This document shows, one piece after another, positions 40,618 to 54,111 of a stretch of 64,000 nt of DNA. Origin of the DNA: Escherichia coli (lineage in GTDB: Bacteria; Pseudomonadota; Gammaproteobacteria; Enterobacterales; Enterobacteriaceae); NCBI RefSeq assembly GCF_046105845.1, contig NZ_CP151004.1, one strand, 5' to 3'. Each line of letters begins with the position of its first letter. Position 1 is the first letter of the stretch. A model generated the notes under the pieces. It did not search any database, was not told the DNA's origin, and saw only the letters and a program-made list of their open reading frames with translations. The position numbers and the translations under genes are program-made.

Positions 40618-40645
40618 AACGAGAAAAGCCAACCTGCGGGTTGGC
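40618..40645 (+). terminator. Rho-independent terminator of fur
   Basis: AAGCCAACC-tgcg-GGTTGGCTT followed by TTTTTAT. Confidence 0.8.
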
Positions 40646-40691
40646 TTTTTTATACACGGGAAATAAGAAAAGCGAGAGTTACAGCTCTCAC

Positions 40692-41018
40692 TTATTTGTT
40701 ATTACTGCGAATTTCCTGCCAGACCTTATCACAGTCGGCTTTTACCGCCTGATCATTTCCGGTTTGCGTTGCGCGCAGACACTGCTGATAATCCAGTACG
40801 CGTACACTTTCCTGATCGGCAAACTGCTGATGTTGTTTCTCTTTCTTCAGCACGTTTAACACGCTCTGGCAGGCTTCAATTTTTTCTGGCGAACCTTGCG
40901 CGGTGTTAATACAGGCGCTGTATGCCTCTTTCAGACGACTGTCTTCCTGTGGCGCGGTTGATTGCGCACAAGCTACCAGCCCCGATGCAATCATGGCGAT
41001 GAGAATCAGTTTTTTCAT
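40692..41018 (-). CDS. chiQ: Lipoprotein ChiQ (YbfN), cotranscribed with chiP
   Basis: 108-aa ORF MKKLILIAMIASGLVACAQSTAPQEDSRL... with a lipobox (LVAC). Confidence 0.9.
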   Translation of the reverse strand: MKKLILIAMIASGLVACAQSTAPQEDSRLKEAYSACINTAQGSPEKIEACQSVLNVLKKEKQHQQFADQESVRVLDYQQCLRATQTGNDQAVKADCDKVWQEIRSNNK

Positions 41019-41067: not shown

Positions 41068-42474
41068 TCAGAAGATGGTGAATGGTGCGATTACCATAAA
41101 TTTCACGTCACGCTCATCCTGGAAGATGTTGCCGTAACCACCGCCCCAGCTTGGGATGTCGGAGTGGTTGTCGTATTCGGTGAAGTGCAGTTTGAACATC
41201 GTGCCTTTGGCACGACCGTCCTGAATGGTGTAGACCGCATCCAGGCTGTAGGCAGACTCTTCAATAGTCCGGTTTTTGTCGTAGTACGCATCCGGATTGC
41301 TCTGCCAGGTCGCAGGTTTAGCATCCCATGCGTAAACGTAGGAAGCGCCGATGGCGAAGCCTGGAAGATTCCAGTTTTTCAGGTCATACATCGCACCGAA
41401 GAAGACCGCTTTTTCGCCGTTGGCGTTGAAGTCAGAACGGTTATCCCACCAGATATCCAGGCGACCGTTCGAGGAAGCGTAGGTTGGAGTCATACGTTGC
41501 AGGAAATATCCCTGCTGACCGTCGGCTTTAACCCAGGTGCCTTCCAGACGCAAATCCACTACATCAGCCGCCCGGTAACCAAAGGTCAACGCTTGCAGCC
41601 AGGCAGTGCCGTCGTAAAGGTCGTTGACGCTGCGATCGTCAACTTTATCGCGCGTACCATAGAACTGGTAGCTGGTGGTTAACGGGCTACCGGCGATATC
41701 AAATTTGTAGCTGGCTTTGGCAAAATATTGATCGATATACCCTTCTGCCTGACCAAATGCCGCTTCCAGTACAAAGTTATTTTTGAAGTCGTACTTCGCA
41801 CCAATAGAATGCAGATAATCAACTTTGGTGGTTTTATCGTTCTGATAAAACTCATCCATTTCCAGATGCCACGGTGCTTTGTATTCGTTGGTCCACATGT
41901 AGGAGAAACTCAACGCACCCGCATCGCCGTAATCAAAATTCGCCCCGGCTTCCGCACCCTGATAAGTACCCGGCATAAAGCTCCAGTGCGGCGCTAACAG
42001 CGTTTGACCAGTTGGCTGAATGTAACCTGCCCTCGCCCACACCGGACCGTATTTAAATTTGGCCGCTGCTTTATACAGGCTTATACCGCTTTTGTCGCCG
42101 GACCAGTCTTCGTCATAGGCTTTATTGCTTTTTGAAAACGCGATTTCGTTCGGGTGAGAGCTGTCACCGTTTTCCGCCATTTCAATCGCCGTAAACGCAG
42201 CAATATCAAGGCCGAACATATCAGCAGCATAACCAGACTGAAAATCGAGGTTGGCGTTCCAGGTGGAGTGAGAAAGGTTGGTTTTGTATTTGTCGCCGTC
42301 GGTAACATCTTTACGGTCGCGTTCACGCTGCCAGTAATAGATACCGCCGGTTAAGGTTGAATCGTCGATGAATCCTTCGGCGCGAGCCTCCGGCATTGCC
42401 ATAAAGCCCGACATTGCTGTAACACCGGCGATAGCCAGCGCCAGCGTACTACGTTTGCCACTAAACGTACGCAT
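41068..42474 (-). CDS. chiP: Chitoporin (chitooligosaccharide outer-membrane porin, OprD family)
   Basis: 468-aa [58 protein letters not shown]..., C-terminal F. Confidence 0.95.
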
Positions 42475-42876
42475 GGGTTAATCCTCTTTGACGTATAAAT
42501 TGCTGCACCAAAGGTGAACAGCGAAAAAAATAAAAATTAAAAAAGTAGCGTTGAGAAAAGTCTCGCTGACTACAGGAACAGACTATTTTTCGCGACGCGA
42601 ATTATCAATCTCTTTCTGTAACCAGAATGTAAGAACATGAGCAACCGCACATATTTTGATGATTTTTGTTACAAGGCTTAAGTTTGCTGTTGAAAGGCTT
42701 GCAGAAGAATAAAAGCGTGAAATTCCAGCAAGATGAAAGCGGTTACATTTTATTTAATTATGGCTTGTGATTTTAAATTTGTTTTATGGATAAATTGCGA
42801 AGCGGAATTAATTCGCGAAGAAAAGCAGAAAAAAACGCCGCAGAGCGCGGCGTTTTGGATTGTTTGCATGTTTCAT

Positions 42877-42908
42877 GCCGGATGCGGCGTAAACGCCTCA
42901 CCCGGCCT
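42877..42908. repeat. REP element downstream of glnS
   Basis: GCCGGATGCGGCGTAAACGCCTCACCCGGCC. Confidence 0.7.
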
Positions 42909-42922
42909 GGTAGAACTTAAAA

Positions 42923-44587
42923 TTACTCGCCTACTTTCGCCCAGGTATCACGCAGCCCAACGGTGCGGTTAAATACCGGTTTTTCCGCCGTAGAATGGCG
43001 GCTGTCGAGGCAGAAATAACCTTCACGCTCAAACTGGAATGCTTTACCCGCTACCGCGTCTTTCAGAGACGGTTCAGCAAAGCCCTGTTTGATCACCAGC
43101 GATTCCGGGTTAATCACCGACAGGAAATCATCCGCAGCACCTGGGTTCGGCACGCTGAACAGACGATCGTACAGGCGGATTTCAACCGGCAGCGCATGTG
43201 CCGCGCTCACCCAGTGGATAACACCTTTCACTTTACGACCATCTGCCGGATCTTTGCTTAAGGTGTCGGCGTCATAAGTACAGAAGATGGTGGTGATATT
43301 GCCTTCGGCATCTTTCTCCACGCGTTCAGCCTTAATGACGTAAGCATTACGCAGACGCACTTCTTTACCCAGCACCAGACGTTTGTACTGCTTGTTAGCT
43401 TCTTCGCGGAAATCGGCGCGATCGATCCAAATCTCACCGCTAAACGGCACCTGACGGCTCCCCATTTCCGGTTTGTTCGGATGGTTCGGCATGGTGACCA
43501 TTTCGCCTTCGCCATGGTAGTTTTCGATAACCAGTTTCACCGGATCGATAACCGCCATTGCGCGCGGCGCATTTTCGTTGAGATCTTCACGGATGCAGGA
43601 TTCCAGTGACGCCATCTCAATGGTGTTGTCCTGCTTGGTCACGCCGATGCGTTTGCAGAACTCACGAATAGAAGCCGCAGTGTAACCACGACGACGCAGA
43701 CCGGAAATGGTCGGCATACGCGGGTCATCCCAGCCTTCAACGTGCTTGTCGGTCACCAGCAGGTTCAGCTTACGCTTGGACATCACGGTGTATTCCAGAT
43801 TCAGGCGCGAGAATTCGTACTGGCGCGGGTGAACAGGAATGGTGATGTTGTCCAGTACCCAGTCGTACAGACGACGGTTGTCCTGGAACTCAAGCGTACA
43901 CAGAGAGTGCGTAATACCTTCCAGCGCATCGCTGATGCAATGGGTGAAGTCGTACATCGGGTAGATGCACCACTTGTTGCCAGTCTGGTGGTGTTCAGCA
44001 AATTTAATGCGGTACAGCACCGGATCGCGCATTACGATAAATGGCGACGCCATGTCGATTTTCGCACGCAGGCAGGCTTTACCTTCTTCAAAACCACCGG
44101 TACGCATTTTTTCGAACAGCGCCAGGTTCTCTTCAACGCTGCGGTCGCGGTACGGGCTGTTTTTACCCGGCTGCGTCAGGGTGCCGCGGTATTCGCGGAT
44201 CTGTTCCGGTGTCAGTTCATCAACGTACGCCAGGCCTTTATTGATCAGTTCGATCGCATAGGCGTGGAGCTGATCAAAATAATCGGAGGAGTAACGGACG
44301 TTACCAGACCAGTGAAAACCTAACCACTCAACGTCGTTTTTGATCGACTCAACATACTCGATATCTTCTTTTACCGGGTTAGTGTCGTCGAAACGCAGGT
44401 TGCACTGGCCTTTATAGTCCTGGGCGATCCCGAAGTTCAGGCAGATAGATTTCGCATGGCCAATATGCAGATAGCCATTCGGCTCCGGCGGGAAACGGGT
44501 GTGTACTGTGGTGTGCTTACCACTGGCCAGATCTTCATCGATGATCTGACGAATAAAGTTAGTCGGGCGGGCTTCTGCCTCACTCAT
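42923..44587 (-). CDS. glnS: Glutaminyl-tRNA synthetase
   Basis: 554-aa [50 protein letters not shown]... with HIGH and VMSKR motifs. Confidence 0.98.
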
Positions 44588-46856: not shown

Positions 46857-46883
46857 AAATTTAATTCGTATCGCAAATTAAAA
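46857..46883. promoter_or_regulatory. NagC operator (near-palindromic) in the nagE-nagB divergent control region
   Basis: AAATTTAATTCGTATCGCAAATTAAAA. A second, weaker candidate (TTATTTTATCATTCAAAAAATC) lies near 46956-46980. Confidence 0.6.
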
Positions 46884-46910: not shown

Positions 46911-47068
46911 AATATCGTTATCATCACTCCCTTTTACTGGCTAAACCAGAAAACTTATTTTATCATTCAAAAAATCAGGTCGGATTGACGCCTGTCTGCG
47001 CAAATCCAGGTTACGCTTAAAGATGCCTAATCCGCCAACGGCTTACATTTTACTTATTGAGGTGAATA

Positions 47069-53406: not shown

Positions 53407-53483
53407 TGGCTACGTAGCTCAGTTGGTTAGAGCACATCACTCATAATGATGGGGTCACAGGTTCGAATCCCGTCGTAGCCACC
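53407..53483 (+). tRNA. metT: tRNA-Met (CAU, elongator)
   Basis: GGCTACGTAGCTCAGTTGGTTAGAGCACATCACTCATAATGATGGGGTCACAGGTTCGAATCCCGTCGTAGCCACCA; anticodon loop CTCATAA. Confidence 0.95.
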
Positions 53484-53492
53484 ATCTTTTTT

Positions 53493-53578
53493 GCGGGAGT
53501 GGCGAAATTGGTAGACGCACCAGATTTAGGTTCTGGCGCCGCAAGGTGTGCGAGTTCAAGTCTCGCCTCCCGCACCAT
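53493..53578 (+). tRNA. leuW: tRNA-Leu (UAG)
   Basis: GCGGGAGTGGCGAAATTGGTAGACGCACCAGATTTAGGTTCTGG...CTCGCCTCCCGCACCA; long variable arm; anticodon TAG. Confidence 0.93.
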
Positions 53579-53600
53579 TCACCAGAAAGCGTTGTACGGA

Positions 53601-53675
53601 TGGGGTATCGCCAAGCGGTAAGGCACCGGTTTTTGATACCGGCATTCCCTGGTTCGAATCCAGGTACCCCAGCCA
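53601..53675 (+). tRNA. glnU: tRNA-Gln (UUG)
   Basis: TGGGGTATCGCCAAGCGGTAAGGCACCGGTTTTTGATACCGGCATTCCCTGGTTCGAATCCAGGTACCCCAGCCA. Confidence 0.95.
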
Positions 53676-53709
53676 TCTTCTTCGAGTAAGCGGTTCACCG
53701 CCCGGTTAT

Positions 53710-53784
53710 TGGGGTATCGCCAAGCGGTAAGGCACCGGTTTTTGATACCGGCATTCCCTGGTTCGAATCCAGGTACCCCAGCCA
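53710..53784 (+). tRNA. glnW: tRNA-Gln (UUG), second identical copy
   Basis: Identical in sequence to glnU. Confidence 0.95.
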
Positions 53785-53799
53785 TCGAAGAAACAATCT

Positions 53800-53876
53800 G
53801 GCTACGTAGCTCAGTTGGTTAGAGCACATCACTCATAATGATGGGGTCACAGGTTCGAATCCCGTCGTAGCCACCA
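53800..53876 (+). tRNA. metU: tRNA-Met (CAU, elongator), second identical copy
   Basis: Identical in sequence to metT. Confidence 0.95.
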
Positions 53877-53924
53877 AATTCTGAATGTGTCGAATAAGTT
53901 CGGCAAATTCACAAACCAATTTGT

Positions 53925-53999
53925 TGGGGTATCGCCAAGCGGTAAGGCACCGGATTCTGATTCCGGCATTCCGAGGTTCGAATCCTCGTACCCCAGCCA
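53925..53999 (+). tRNA. glnV: tRNA-Gln (CUG)
   Basis: TGGGGTATCGCCAAGCGGTAAGGCACCGGATTCTGATTCCGGCATTCCGAGGTTCGAATCCTCGTACCCCAGCCA. Confidence 0.95.
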
Positions 54000-54036
54000 A
54001 TTTATTCAAGACGCTTACCTTGTAAGTGCACCCAGT

Positions 54037-54111
54037 TGGGGTATCGCCAAGCGGTAAGGCACCGGATTCTGATTCCGGCATTCCGAGGTTCGAATCCTCG
54101 TACCCCAGCCA
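54037..54111 (+). tRNA. glnX: tRNA-Gln (CUG), second identical copy
   Basis: Identical in sequence to glnV. Confidence 0.95.

What the first reader, a model, noticed from the sequence alone, without database searches (positions are those of the whole stretch)
42475..42922. Long leader region upstream of chiP
About 450 bp separates glnS from the chiP start. In E. coli the chiP 5'UTR is a target of the sRNA ChiX, which silences chiPQ; this region should carry the promoter and the ChiX pairing site near the RBS. I could not verify the pairing by eye.
Basis: established knowledge. Interest (0 to 1): 0.25.

Follow-up and report, generated by a model that had tools for sequence, protein, structure and literature searches.

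The report
chiP promoter and ChiX-targeted leader
This is the ordinary, already well-studied control region of the E. coli chitin-sugar porin gene chiP: a 99-base mRNA leader carrying the expected docking site for the small RNA ChiX on the ribosome-binding site, preceded by a NagC-repressed promoter and the end of the neighbouring glnS gene.

Summary
glnS (44587..42923, minus strand) and chiP (42474..41068, minus strand) are separated by 448 bp, and the window is E. coli.

The predicted ChiX complementarity is present. CGUCAAAGAGGA (42493..42482, -19 to -8 from the AUG) pairs perfectly with ChiX nt 45-56 and covers the Shine-Dalgarno GAGGA. It is the only 12-nt perfect match to ChiX on either strand of the 64-kb window. 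Hybrid energy is -21.0 kcal/mol, reached by 5 of 2000 shuffles. The 11-nt core is kept in 74 of 80 enterobacterial species.

"Long leader" is a misnomer. By homology to the K-12 annotation (chiZ, b4808), the 5'UTR is 99 nt (42573..42475). The other ~350 bp hold:
- a REP element;
- the glnS intrinsic terminator;
- a distal NagC-like box;
- a CRP-like site;
- a TTGATA-N17-TAGTCT promoter overlapped by the published "ybfM proximal" NagC operator.

The mechanism comes from the literature. ChiX with Hfq blocks chiP translation, which exposes an intragenic Rho terminator and silences chiQ. The leader fragment ChiZ sponges ChiX in return.

Everything matches published E. coli and Salmonella biology, so this is already known and of low interest.

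The parts
42923..42925 (-). glnS stop codon (TAA); upstream boundary of the intergenic region
   Evidence: ORF 42923..44587 (-). Pfam class I Glu/Gln tRNA-synthetase domains. Annotated as glnS under the E. coli matches.
42877..42906 (-). Single REP (repetitive extragenic palindrome) element, GCCGGGTGAGGCGTTTACGCCGCATCCGGC, just after glnS
   Evidence: It aligns to the last of three REP-like palindromes in K-12; K-12 has 131 bp more here. There is a sub-threshold Rfam match to the REP-derived naRNA4 at 42830..42907 (36.4 bits against a gathering score of 59.5). Coordinates. The REP assignment rests on my knowledge of the REP consensus.
42822..42856 (-). glnS intrinsic (Rho-independent) terminator: 11-bp G+C-rich stem 42856..42832, then a T-run 42831..42822
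   Evidence: Terminator scan, (11 pairs, 6 G-C, loop 3, tail TTTCTGCTTT). Conserved in K-12 with changes confined to the loop region.
42807..42829 (-). Candidate distal NagC operator TCTGCTTTTCTTCGCGAATTAAT (TT/AA at positions +/-5,6 present; weak left half)
   Evidence: The NagC PWM gives 8.7-9.2 bits here. The orthologous box ...CGAATTAAT scores mostly about 9-18 bits (22 in one Kosakonia) and lies roughly 160-245 bp (most often about 210-236 bp) upstream of the proximal operator in most of the 78 other species scanned. Centre-to-centre distance in the window is 223 bp. Binding is inferred, not shown. An overlapping alternative box at 42789..42811 scores 11.0-11.5 bits.
42665..42673 (-). Conserved upstream block TGTAACAAA, unassigned
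   Evidence: Phylogenetic footprint over 80 distinct upstream sequences. It does not resemble the repeats I read as ChbR sites in the chb promoter. No function assigned.
42636..42651 (-). Candidate CRP (CAP) site TGTGCGGTTGCTCATG, centred at -70.5 from the transcription start
   Evidence: The half-sites TGTGC and TCAT are near-invariant across 80 sequences while the 6-nt spacer varies. The right half matches the CAP-like site I read in the chb promoter (TGTGAAGAGGGTCATA). The position fits class I spacing, from established knowledge. Inferred, not tested.
42603..42608 (-). -35 hexamer TTGATA
   Evidence: It lies 17 bp upstream of TAGTCT and is correctly spaced from the K-12 start site. Identical in 60 of 60 parsed species.
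42584..42606 (-). Proximal NagC operator GATAATTCGCGTCGCGAAAAATA, filling the -35/-10 spacer
   Evidence: The 23-mer is letter-for-letter the 'ybfM proximal' NagC site in FITBAR Table 1 (PMC3098098). A leave-one-out PWM gives 22.2 bits, rank 2 of the whole window after the nagE operator. A 20.3-21.9-bit site is present in all 78 other species scanned.
42580..42585 (-). -10 hexamer TAGTCT (weak, 3 of 6 matches to TATAAT)
   Evidence: It occupies -12..-7 relative to the K-12-equivalent start. Found in 49 of 60 species, the rest having TAACCT, TAATCT, TATTCT or TACTCT. The generic promoter scan missed it because the match is too weak, which fits dependence on an activator.
42475..42573 (-). chiP 5'UTR (99 nt), the equivalent of K-12 sRNA ChiZ (b4808). 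Transcription start equivalent G at 42573; the ChiZ 3' end maps at or next to the A of the AUG (42474)
   Evidence: K-12 RefSeq annotates chiZ at 708236..708333, directly abutting chiP. The window differs only by one extra T in the T-run. Term-seq places the 3' end at 708334, and the cloning primers start at GTAGTCAGCG (PMC7815308 supplements). The start site is transferred by homology, not measured in this strain.
42545..42573 (-). 5'-terminal hairpin of the leader (UTR nt 1-29)
   Evidence: MFE and centroid fold. A 5'-terminal hairpin is predicted in nearly all of 40 orthologous leaders despite sequence change. For the named helix, 75.9% of cells pair, against 32-58% when the partner is slid, and 8 of 10 pairs show a double change.
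42524..42544 (-). U-rich single-stranded tract UUUUUUAAUUUUUAUUUUUUU (possible Hfq contact)
   Evidence: Unpaired in the fold. The U-run is conserved. ChiZ levels depend on Hfq (PMC7815308). The Hfq contact at this tract is my inference.
42502..42522 (-). Second hairpin (UTR nt 52-72), about 9 nt upstream of the ChiX site
   Evidence: A G+C-rich hairpin at the same relative place is predicted in most orthologues with different sequences.
42482..42493 (-). ChiX pairing site CGUCAAAGAGGA (-19..-8 from the AUG), containing the Shine-Dalgarno GAGGA (42486..42482)
   Evidence: It is the only 12-nt perfect complement to ChiX in the window on either strand. The duplex with ChiX nt 45-56 is -21.0 kcal/mol, with opening costs of 2.7 and 2.0; 5 of 2000 dinucleotide shuffles reach it. 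The exact 12-mer occurs in 50 of 80 species and the 11-mer GTCAAAGAGGA in 74 of 80. Pairing was proven by compensatory mutations in K-12 and Salmonella, as cited in PMC7815308.
42472..42474 (-). chiP start codon ATG
   Evidence: ORF 41068..42474 (-). It aligns with the K-12 chiP start.
42210..42339 (-). C-rich, G-poor stretch inside chiP (candidate rut site for the ChiX-triggered Rho terminator)
   Evidence: This is the highest C-minus-G 78-nt stretch of the whole chiP mRNA. It lies just upstream of window 42184, the equivalent of K-12 708624, the chiP-internal 3' end in supplementary file 2 of PMC7815308, which I take to be the bicyclomycin comparison. Rho polarity in chiP is described in PMC6582626 and PMC12360218. 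The assignment is inferred.

Best explanation
The 448-bp glnS-chiP spacer is the known control region of the chitoporin operon chiPQ. Reading 5' to 3' on the minus strand, it begins with glnS 3' furniture: one REP element and an intrinsic terminator that insulates chiP from glnS transcription. Next comes about 250 bp of upstream regulatory DNA: a distal NagC-like box, an unassigned conserved block and a CRP-like site at -70.5. The sigma-70 promoter is TTGATA-N17-TAGTCT, and its spacer is filled by a high-affinity NagC operator. NagC therefore represses initiation when no GlcNAc-6-P is present, probably by looping to the distal box. Transcription starts at about 42573 and yields a 99-nt leader made of a 5' hairpin, a U-rich tract, a second hairpin and an unstructured 3' part. 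The Hfq-dependent sRNA ChiX is encoded elsewhere in the genome. It pairs through nt 45-56 with CGUCAAAGAGGA at -19..-8, occludes the Shine-Dalgarno sequence and blocks 30S binding. The untranslated chiP RNA then exposes a C-rich site in the early coding region, so Rho terminates and chiQ is silenced as well. The leader is also released as the short RNA ChiZ, which carries the same site and titrates ChiX. Shown here: the coordinates, the complementarity and its statistics, identity to the K-12 elements, and conservation. Taken from the literature: the in vivo repression, the Rho step, ChiZ sponging and NagC repression. Inferred: the CRP site, the distal NagC box, the Hfq contact at the U tract and the rut location.
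For: Alignment to K-12 is near-identical from the terminator to the AUG, and the K-12 chiZ annotation gives the start site. The ChiX sequence comes from K-12 b4585, which is Rfam sroB at 82 bits, and it is present in 5422 of 5426 E. coli genomes. The chiP site is the unique 12-nt perfect complement in the window. The hybrid energy is -21.0 kcal/mol, z about -4, reached by 5 of 2000 shuffles. The site and SD are predicted unpaired in the leader's MFE and centroid structure, although the mean unpaired probability of the site in the ensemble is only 0.54. The same ChiX nucleotides pair with the chbB-chbC decoy CCCGUCAAAGAG in K-12. The NagC operator is identical to the published ybfM proximal site, ranks second in the window and is conserved in all species scanned. 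The phylogenetic footprint shows near-invariant -35, operator, -10 and ChiX site within variable flanks. Literature: ChiX blocks the chiP RBS and triggers Rho polarity (PMC6582626; PMC12360218). ChiZ is a 5'UTR-derived ChiX sponge with its 3' end at 708334 (PMC7815308 and correction PMC8043740). NagC represses chiP (PMC4098024).
Against: ChiX itself is not in the window (one search finds only tRNAs), so pairing was tested with the K-12 ChiX sequence, not the copy from this genome. Hybrid energy alone is not unique: four other places in the window give -21.8 to -22.9 kcal/mol. One was inspected (16701, minus strand) and lies antisense to an ORF. The transcription start, the ChiZ 3' end and all regulation are transferred from K-12 and Salmonella, not measured here. 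The leader as a whole is not unusually stable (z = -0.94), and RNAalifold found no consensus structure on the MAFFT alignment, so the hairpins are only modestly supported. The distal NagC box is weak in E. coli (about 9 bits). The primary paper on chiP transcriptional control (Plumbridge et al. 2014) could not be read.
Confidence: 0.93

Rival explanations
1. The whole ~450 bp is a genuinely long 5' leader, transcribed from a promoter close to glnS or by glnS read-through, that works through a structured cis-acting RNA such as a riboswitch or attenuator.
For: One promoter-like match in the AT-rich part (TTAAAA-18-TAAAAT, 42776..42747) would give a leader of about 265 nt.
Against: A strong intrinsic terminator follows glnS. 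K-12 annotation and the published cloning primers put the start at GTAGTC, 98 nt before the AUG. The single promoter-like hit is no more than the shuffles give (1 against a mean of 0.9). No Rfam family matches the leader at E-values up to 10; the only hits are sub-threshold REP- or terminator-like matches. The 99-nt leader folds no better than shuffles (z = -0.94). Conservation upstream of -100 is patchy and looks like DNA-binding sites.
Confidence: 0.03
2. The ChiX complementarity is a chance or generic effect: ChiX carries an anti-SD-like CCUCU, so it would match any strong Shine-Dalgarno sequence.
For: By my own arithmetic, a 12-mer match between an 84-nt RNA and 128 kb of sequence is expected about 0.5 times by chance. 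Four other sites in the window reach similar hybrid energies.
Against: This is the only 12-mer in the window, and it falls exactly on a translation start region. Only 5 of 2000 shuffled leaders reach the energy. The match extends 7 nt beyond the SD (CGUCAAA), and that extension is conserved in 74 of 80 species while the flanks drift. The same ChiX seed also pairs with the chbBC decoy. Compensatory-mutation proof exists in the literature, as cited.
Confidence: 0.02
3. The main output of the leader is the sRNA ChiZ, a ChiX sponge that forms an autoregulatory loop. The leader is then an active regulator rather than just a passive target. This complements the main explanation rather than excluding it.
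For: K-12 annotates the orthologous 98 nt as the ncRNA chiZ. ChiZ is abundant and Hfq-dependent, raises chiP and lowers ChiX when overexpressed (PMC7815308 and correction PMC8043740). The window sequence is identical apart from one extra U. The conserved terminal hairpins and U tract would suit a stable Hfq-bound fragment.
Against: The sponge effect was shown by overexpression only. ChiZ formation in this strain is untested. How the 3' end is made, by Rho or by processing at the AUG, is not settled by sequence.
Confidence: 0.6

Closest known systems
E. coli K-12 chiP (ybfM) promoter and leader, including sRNA ChiZ (b4808)
   Same: From the glnS terminator to the chiP AUG there are about nine small differences (substitutions and single-base indels), and none in the promoter, the proximal operator or the ChiX site. 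The -35, NagC proximal operator, -10, start-site context, both hairpins, ChiX site, SD and AUG are all the same.
   Different: There is one extra T in the leader's T-run, giving 99 nt against 98. The window has one REP after glnS where K-12 has three, making the spacer 448 bp against 576 bp. No difference touches a functional element.
Salmonella chiP leader: ChiX repression with Rho-dependent polarity on chiQ (Bossi et al. 2012; Figueroa-Bossi et al. 2009)
   Same: S. enterica subsp. diarizonae (L012) has the same 12-nt site CGTCAAAGAGGA at the same distance from the AUG, and the same promoter and operator apart from one base (CGCATCGCG). The window has a C-rich early coding stretch where a rut site would be expected.
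   Different: The Rho step was demonstrated in Salmonella and is only inferred here. From memory of Plumbridge et al. 2014, the activator requirements (ChbR) may differ between the two species; I could not read that paper.
chbB-chbC intercistronic decoy of ChiX
   Same: It pairs with the same ChiX nucleotides: CCCGUCAAAGAG in K-12, which overlaps the chiP site by 10 nt.
   Different: It lies in another operon outside the window. Pairing there destroys ChiX rather than silencing a gene (PMC4098024). The match is shifted 2 nt towards the ChiX terminator and does not cover an SD.
NagC operators of nagE-nagB, in the same window at 46860..46882 and 46954..46976
   Same: The architecture is the same 23-bp quasi-palindrome with TT/AA at +/-5,6 and a CG-rich centre. 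The scores are comparable: 22.4 and 18.2 bits against 22.2 for chiP. Both loci pair a strong promoter-proximal box with a second upstream box, which suggests looping.
   Different: In chiP the boxes are about 223 bp apart, against about 94 bp centre to centre in nagE-nagB (coordinates). The chiP distal box is weak in E. coli.

Membership tests
ChiX (SroB/MicM/RybC) target site in the chiP 5'UTR | Contiguous Watson-Crick complementarity to the single-stranded ChiX seed (nt ~45-56, UCCUCUUUGACG) | tested here: met
   12 of 12 pairs at 42493..42482. It is the unique 12-mer in the window. The duplex is -21.0 kcal/mol, reached by 5 of 2000 shuffles.
ChiX (SroB/MicM/RybC) target site in the chiP 5'UTR | The site overlaps the Shine-Dalgarno sequence or translation initiation region of the target | tested here: met
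   The site spans -19..-8 and includes GAGGA, 7 nt before the AUG.
ChiX (SroB/MicM/RybC) target site in the chiP 5'UTR | The target gene is the OprD-family chitoporin chiP, followed by chiQ | tested here: met
   Pfam OprD (E = 1.6e-24) and YbfN (E = 1.1e-53). RefSeq annotates chiP under the matches.
ChiX (SroB/MicM/RybC) target site in the chiP 5'UTR | A chiX gene with the matching seed in the same genome | not testable with these tools
   The chiX locus (ybaK-ybaP) lies about 200 kb away in K-12 and is not in the window; Rfam finds no sroB there. It is present in 5422 of 5426 complete E. coli genomes, 5011 of them at 99% identity or more, so presence is very likely.
ChiX (SroB/MicM/RybC) target site in the chiP 5'UTR | ChiX- and Hfq-dependent repression in vivo, restored by compensatory mutations | not testable with these tools
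   Shown for K-12 and Salmonella in the literature, as cited in PMC7815308 and PMC6582626. Not tested for this strain.
ChiZ, a 5'UTR-derived sRNA sponge | Sequence orthologous to K-12 b4808 (708236..708333), containing the ChiX site | tested here: met
   All 98 K-12 positions are identical, plus one inserted T.
ChiZ, a 5'UTR-derived sRNA sponge | A discrete ~90-100-nt transcript with a 5' end at the chiP start site and a 3' end at the AUG | not testable with these tools
   The Term-seq 3' end at 708334 and the northern blots are from K-12 only.
NagC operator | 23-bp quasi-palindrome with invariant TT/AA at +/-5,6, and G or C at +/-11 in high-affinity sites (PMC4288165) | tested here: met
   GATAATTCGCGTCGCGAAAAATA has TT and AA at +/-5,6 and G at -11, with A at +11. 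It is identical to the published ybfM proximal site and scores 22.2 bits in a leave-one-out PWM.
NagC operator (distal box 42807..42829) | The same motif at a looping distance, with NagC binding | tested here: inconclusive
   TT/AA are present but the score is only about 9 bits. The orthologous boxes score mostly about 9-18 bits in other genera (22 in one Kosakonia), roughly 160-245 bp upstream of the proximal box. Binding is untested.
CRP class I activation site | TGTGA-N6-TCACA-like palindrome centred near -61.5, -71.5 or -82.5 | tested here: inconclusive
   TGTGC-N6-TCATG matches 7 of 10 consensus positions and is centred at -70.5. The half-sites are conserved and the spacer is variable. 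No binding data were seen.
Structured cis-regulatory leader (riboswitch or attenuator) | A match to a curated RNA family, or a fold clearly more stable than shuffles with a covarying consensus structure | tested here: not met
   No leader hit in Rfam at E-values up to 10. Fold z = -0.94. RNAalifold predicts 0 pairs.
REP element / BIME | A ~35-bp imperfect palindrome of the GCCGGATG...CATCCGGC type in an extragenic 3' position, variable in copy number between strains | tested here: inconclusive
   The palindrome at 42877..42906 aligns to one of three K-12 copies, and the copy number differs. Only a sub-threshold Rfam naRNA4 match was found. The consensus comparison is from memory.

The most novel reading that the evidence does not exclude
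The most novel reading not excluded is evolutionary rather than mechanistic. The chiP leader may be a hotspot where the ChiX switch is rewired. Kosakonia species carry a three-base variant site, CGUC(C/U)AGAAGGA, which would mismatch E. coli-type ChiX. That implies either a co-evolved ChiX seed, which would be a natural compensatory pair, or loss of ChiX control. Some Citrobacter species carry an ERIC element, and one E. coli O104:H4 isolate carries an IS1, inside the leader with the ChiX site preserved. None of this concerns the window sequence itself, which is canonical.
Probability: 0.25. Interest if true: 0.25.

Novelty: already known. Interest (0 to 1): 0.08.

Why it matters
It matters only as correct annotation. 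The region is a textbook case of multilayer control of one porin operon: a NagC-repressed promoter, SD occlusion by an sRNA, sRNA-induced Rho polarity, and an mRNA leader that sponges its own repressor. Showing that the window carries the canonical version with every element intact means nothing new needs explaining. A downstream annotator should mark a 99-nt leader (ChiZ), a ChiX site and a NagC operator here, not a 450-nt leader.

Tried and rejected
(1) RNAduplex with full-length ChiX over-extended the hybrid into ChiX's own hairpins (-38.7 and -45.5 kcal/mol). I rejected that as an artefact and repeated the calculation with the single-stranded part of ChiX and explicit opening energies.

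(2) I looked for a natural compensatory change. Kosakonia has a variant site, so I scanned metagenome contigs for the guessed matching ChiX seed TCCTTCTGGACGGG. The 120 hits are chance 14-mer matches, and none resembles ChiX (best local score 19 of 84).

(3) RNAalifold on the MAFFT alignment of 40 leaders gave no consensus structure. I fell back on per-sequence folds and a named-helix count, which support the 5' hairpin only moderately.

(4) The generic promoter scan missed the real promoter because its -10 matches only 3 of 6 positions. It reported one AT-rich match that is no better than shuffles, so I did not use it.

(5) Plumbridge et al. 2014, the primary source for chiP transcription control, is not in the library. 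The NagC evidence therefore comes from FITBAR Table 1 and a review.

(6) I asked whether the conserved block TGTAACAAA is a ChbR site by reading the chb promoter. It shows no resemblance to the AGGTCAA(A/G)GA repeats there, so the block is left unassigned.

(7) One of the four other ChiX-like hybrid sites in the window (16701, minus strand) was inspected and lies antisense to an ORF. I dismissed it as chance; the other three were not inspected.

Full report
**Observation**

All the genes concerned lie on the minus strand.
- glnS is 44587..42923, chiP is 42474..41068 and chiQ is 41018..40692.
- Pfam confirms a class I Glu/Gln tRNA synthetase, an OprD-family porin and a YbfN lipoprotein.
- The 591 nt around the spacer match 5424 of 5426 complete E. 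coli genomes, where the features underneath are annotated glnS and chiP.

K-12 MG1655 has 576 bp at this position. The difference is a 131-bp block holding two further REP-like palindromes directly after glnS. From the terminator to the chiP AUG the two sequences show about nine small differences, all outside the promoter, the proximal operator and the ChiX site.

**Anatomy, 5' to 3' on the minus strand** (coordinates verified)

| Window coordinates | Element | Basis |
|---|---|---|
| 42925..42923 | glnS stop codon TAA | |
| 42906..42877 | One REP palindrome | sub-threshold Rfam naRNA4 match only, |
| 42856..42832, T-run 42831..42822 | glnS intrinsic terminator, 11-bp stem | |
| 42829..42807 | Distal NagC-like box TCTGCTTTTCTTCGCGAATTAAT | |
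| 42673..42665 | Conserved block TGTAACAAA, unassigned | |
| 42651..42636 | CRP-like site TGTGCGGTTGCTCATG | |
| 42608..42603 | -35 TTGATA | |
| 42606..42584 | NagC operator GATAATTCGCGTCGCGAAAAATA | |
| 42585..42580 | -10 TAGTCT | |
| 42573 | Transcription start equivalent (G) | |
| 42573..42475 | 99-nt leader | |
| 42474 | chiP AUG | |

The start site is taken from K-12. RefSeq annotates the sRNA chiZ (b4808) at 708236..708333, directly abutting chiP. The published chiP and ChiZ cloning primers begin at (G)TAGTCAGCGAGAC. So the leader is 99 nt, not about 450 nt.

**ChiX pairing**

ChiX was taken from K-12 (b4585, 84 nt; Rfam sroB at 82 bits). It is absent from the window but present in 5422 of 5426 E. 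coli genomes.
- An exact k-mer scan of both strands of the window finds a single 12-nt perfect complement to ChiX: CGTCAAAGAGGA at 42493..42482.
- With the single-stranded part of ChiX, RNAduplex pairs ChiX nt 45-56 (UCCUCUUUGACG) with leader nt 81-92, which is -19..-8 from the AUG.
- The duplex energy is -21.0 kcal/mol. Opening costs are 2.7 kcal/mol for ChiX and 2.0 kcal/mol for the leader.
- Dinucleotide shuffles of the leader average -11.1 with a standard deviation of 2.5, and 5 of 2000 reach the observed value.
- The site includes the Shine-Dalgarno GAGGA, 7 nt from the AUG. It is unpaired in the leader's MFE and centroid structure, although its mean unpaired probability in the ensemble is only 0.54.

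Energy alone is not unique. Four other places in the window give -21.8 to -22.9 kcal/mol. One was inspected and lies antisense to an ORF.

The same ChiX nucleotides pair with the known chbB-chbC decoy, CCCGUCAAAGAG, in K-12.

**Comparative evidence**

A protein-seeded scan returned chiP loci from 80 species of Enterobacteriaceae.
- The exact 12-mer is present in 50 of them.
- The 11-mer GTCAAAGAGGA is present in 74.
- The 6 exceptions are 5 Kosakonia-type leaders with CGTC(C/T)AGAAGGA and one Leclercia with CGTCAATGAGGA.

A per-column footprint shows near-invariant blocks at the ChiX site plus SD, the U-run, and the whole AGATTGATAATTCGCGTCGCGAAAAATAGTCT promoter/operator. The TGTGC and TCAT half-sites of the CRP-like site are also near-invariant, while its spacer is variable. 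The flanking sequence drifts.

In the species whose promoter could be parsed:
- the -35 is TTGATA in 60 of 60;
- the -10 is TAGTCT in 49 of 60;
- leader lengths are 90-120 nt.

**NagC operators**

The 23-mer in the promoter spacer is letter-for-letter the "ybfM proximal" NagC site of FITBAR Table 1 (PMC3098098). I built a PWM from the other nine published sites.
- It scores the chiP 23-mer at 22.2 bits. That is rank 2 in the window, just behind the nagE operator at 46860..46882.
- Every one of the 78 other species scanned has a 20.3-21.9-bit site at the same place.
- A second box ending ...CGAATTAAT recurs in most species, roughly 160-245 bp (most often about 210-236 bp) upstream of the first. 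It scores mostly about 9-18 bits, with 22 in one Kosakonia.
- In the window this second box is 42829..42807. It scores about 9 bits and is centred 223 bp from the proximal box.

This arrangement is what NagC looping would predict, but binding at the distal box is my inference. A review states that NagC represses chiP and chb transcription (PMC4098024).

**Leader structure**

The 99-nt leader folds into four parts:
- a 5'-terminal hairpin, nt 1-29;
- a 21-nt U-rich tract;
- a second hairpin, nt 52-72;
- an open 3' part that carries the ChiX site.

The fold is not unusually stable (z = -0.94), and Rfam has no matching family. RNAalifold found no consensus on the MAFFT alignment.

Per-sequence folds of 40 orthologues do show the same hairpin / U-tract / hairpin / open-site layout with different sequences. 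A count on the named 5' helix gives 75.9% paired cells against 32-58% when the partner is slid, and 8 of 10 pairs show double changes. That is moderate support. It agrees with the published statement that ChiZ has stems protecting its ends.

**Mechanism**

This part comes from the literature and is not tested here.
- ChiX with Hfq binds the chiP ribosome-binding site, blocks translation and promotes decay.
- The ribosome-free RNA exposes an intragenic rut site. Rho then terminates inside chiP and chiQ is silenced (PMC6582626; PMC12360218).
- In the window, the most C-rich, G-poor stretch of the whole chiP mRNA is 42339..42210. It lies just upstream of 42184, the position equivalent to 708624, the chiP-internal 3' end listed in supplementary file 2 of PMC7815308, which I take to be the bicyclomycin comparison.
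- The leader is also released as ChiZ. This RNA is about 90-100 nt, has its 3' end at 708334, depends on Hfq, and raises chiP while lowering ChiX when overexpressed (PMC7815308 and correction PMC8043740).

**Verdict**

The only correction is that most of the 448 bp is not leader.

Every element is the canonical K-12 or Salmonella one, so the finding is already known and of low interest. The only mildly open points concern other genera and are listed under things noticed in passing: the Kosakonia variant site, and the ERIC and IS1 insertions in the leader.

Noticed in passing
L048, L049, L057, L058, L066 (Kosakonia-type chiP leaders), about -19..-8 from the ATG: The ChiX site is CGTC(C/T)AGAAGGA, three changes from the otherwise near-invariant CGTCAAAGAGGA. 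With an E. coli-type ChiX this would leave two mismatches and a G-U pair. Either ChiX has co-evolved there or control is weakened.
   Followed up: partly
L013, L020, L021, L022, L024, L026 (Citrobacter spp. and one MAG labelled Raoultella), chiP 5'UTR: An ERIC-like element of about 124 bp sits inside the leader between the start site and the ChiX site. The NagC operator moves from about -121 to about -240..-246 from the ATG, while CGTCAAAGAGGA is kept. The ERIC1R and ERIC2 primer sequences (recalled from memory) match L020-L022 with 3-4 mismatches each.
   Followed up: partly
L204 (E. coli O104:H4 FDAARGOS_348, NZ_CP022086.2 251354..252051): An IS1B element is inserted in the chiP leader, after about UTR nt 57. 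It separates chiP from its NagC-controlled promoter but leaves the ChiX site and SD next to the gene.
   Followed up: partly
window 42857..42922 compared with L001 2259..2392: REP copy number after glnS varies. The window, and E. whittamii L003, have one REP, whereas K-12 has three (131 bp more). This is why the spacer is 448 bp rather than 576 bp.
   Followed up: yes
window 42665..42673 (minus strand): The block TGTAACAAA, about 20 bp upstream of the CRP-like site, is strongly conserved across 80 species but matches no site I could assign. It is not similar to the repeats I read as ChbR sites in the chb promoter.
   Followed up: partly
window 46860..46882 and 46954..46976: The two classical NagC operators of the divergent nagE-nagB promoters are in the same window. 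They are the best and third-best NagC PWM hits (22.4 and 18.2 bits) and served as an internal positive control.
   Followed up: yes
window 40645..40667: A 15.2-bit NagC-PWM hit (CTTATTTCCCGTGTATAAAAAAG) lies between the converging ends of fur and chiQ. It is probably part of a terminator region rather than an operator.
   Followed up: no
window 53408..54108 (+): A cluster of seven tRNA genes, the only Rfam gathering-score hits in the window. From its position relative to glnS, and from memory, this is presumably the metT-leuW-glnUW-metU-glnVX cluster of E. coli.
   Followed up: no
L003 and L005 compared with window 41068..44587: The GTDB representatives of E. whittamii and of 'E. coli' (SCPM-O-B-8794) are only about 94-95% identical to the window at DNA level over glnS-chiP. 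Some RefSeq E. coli genomes are 99.7% identical over the 591-nt spacer region. The window is therefore a typical E. coli, and the GTDB 'E. coli' representative sampled here is comparatively divergent at this locus.
   Followed up: partly
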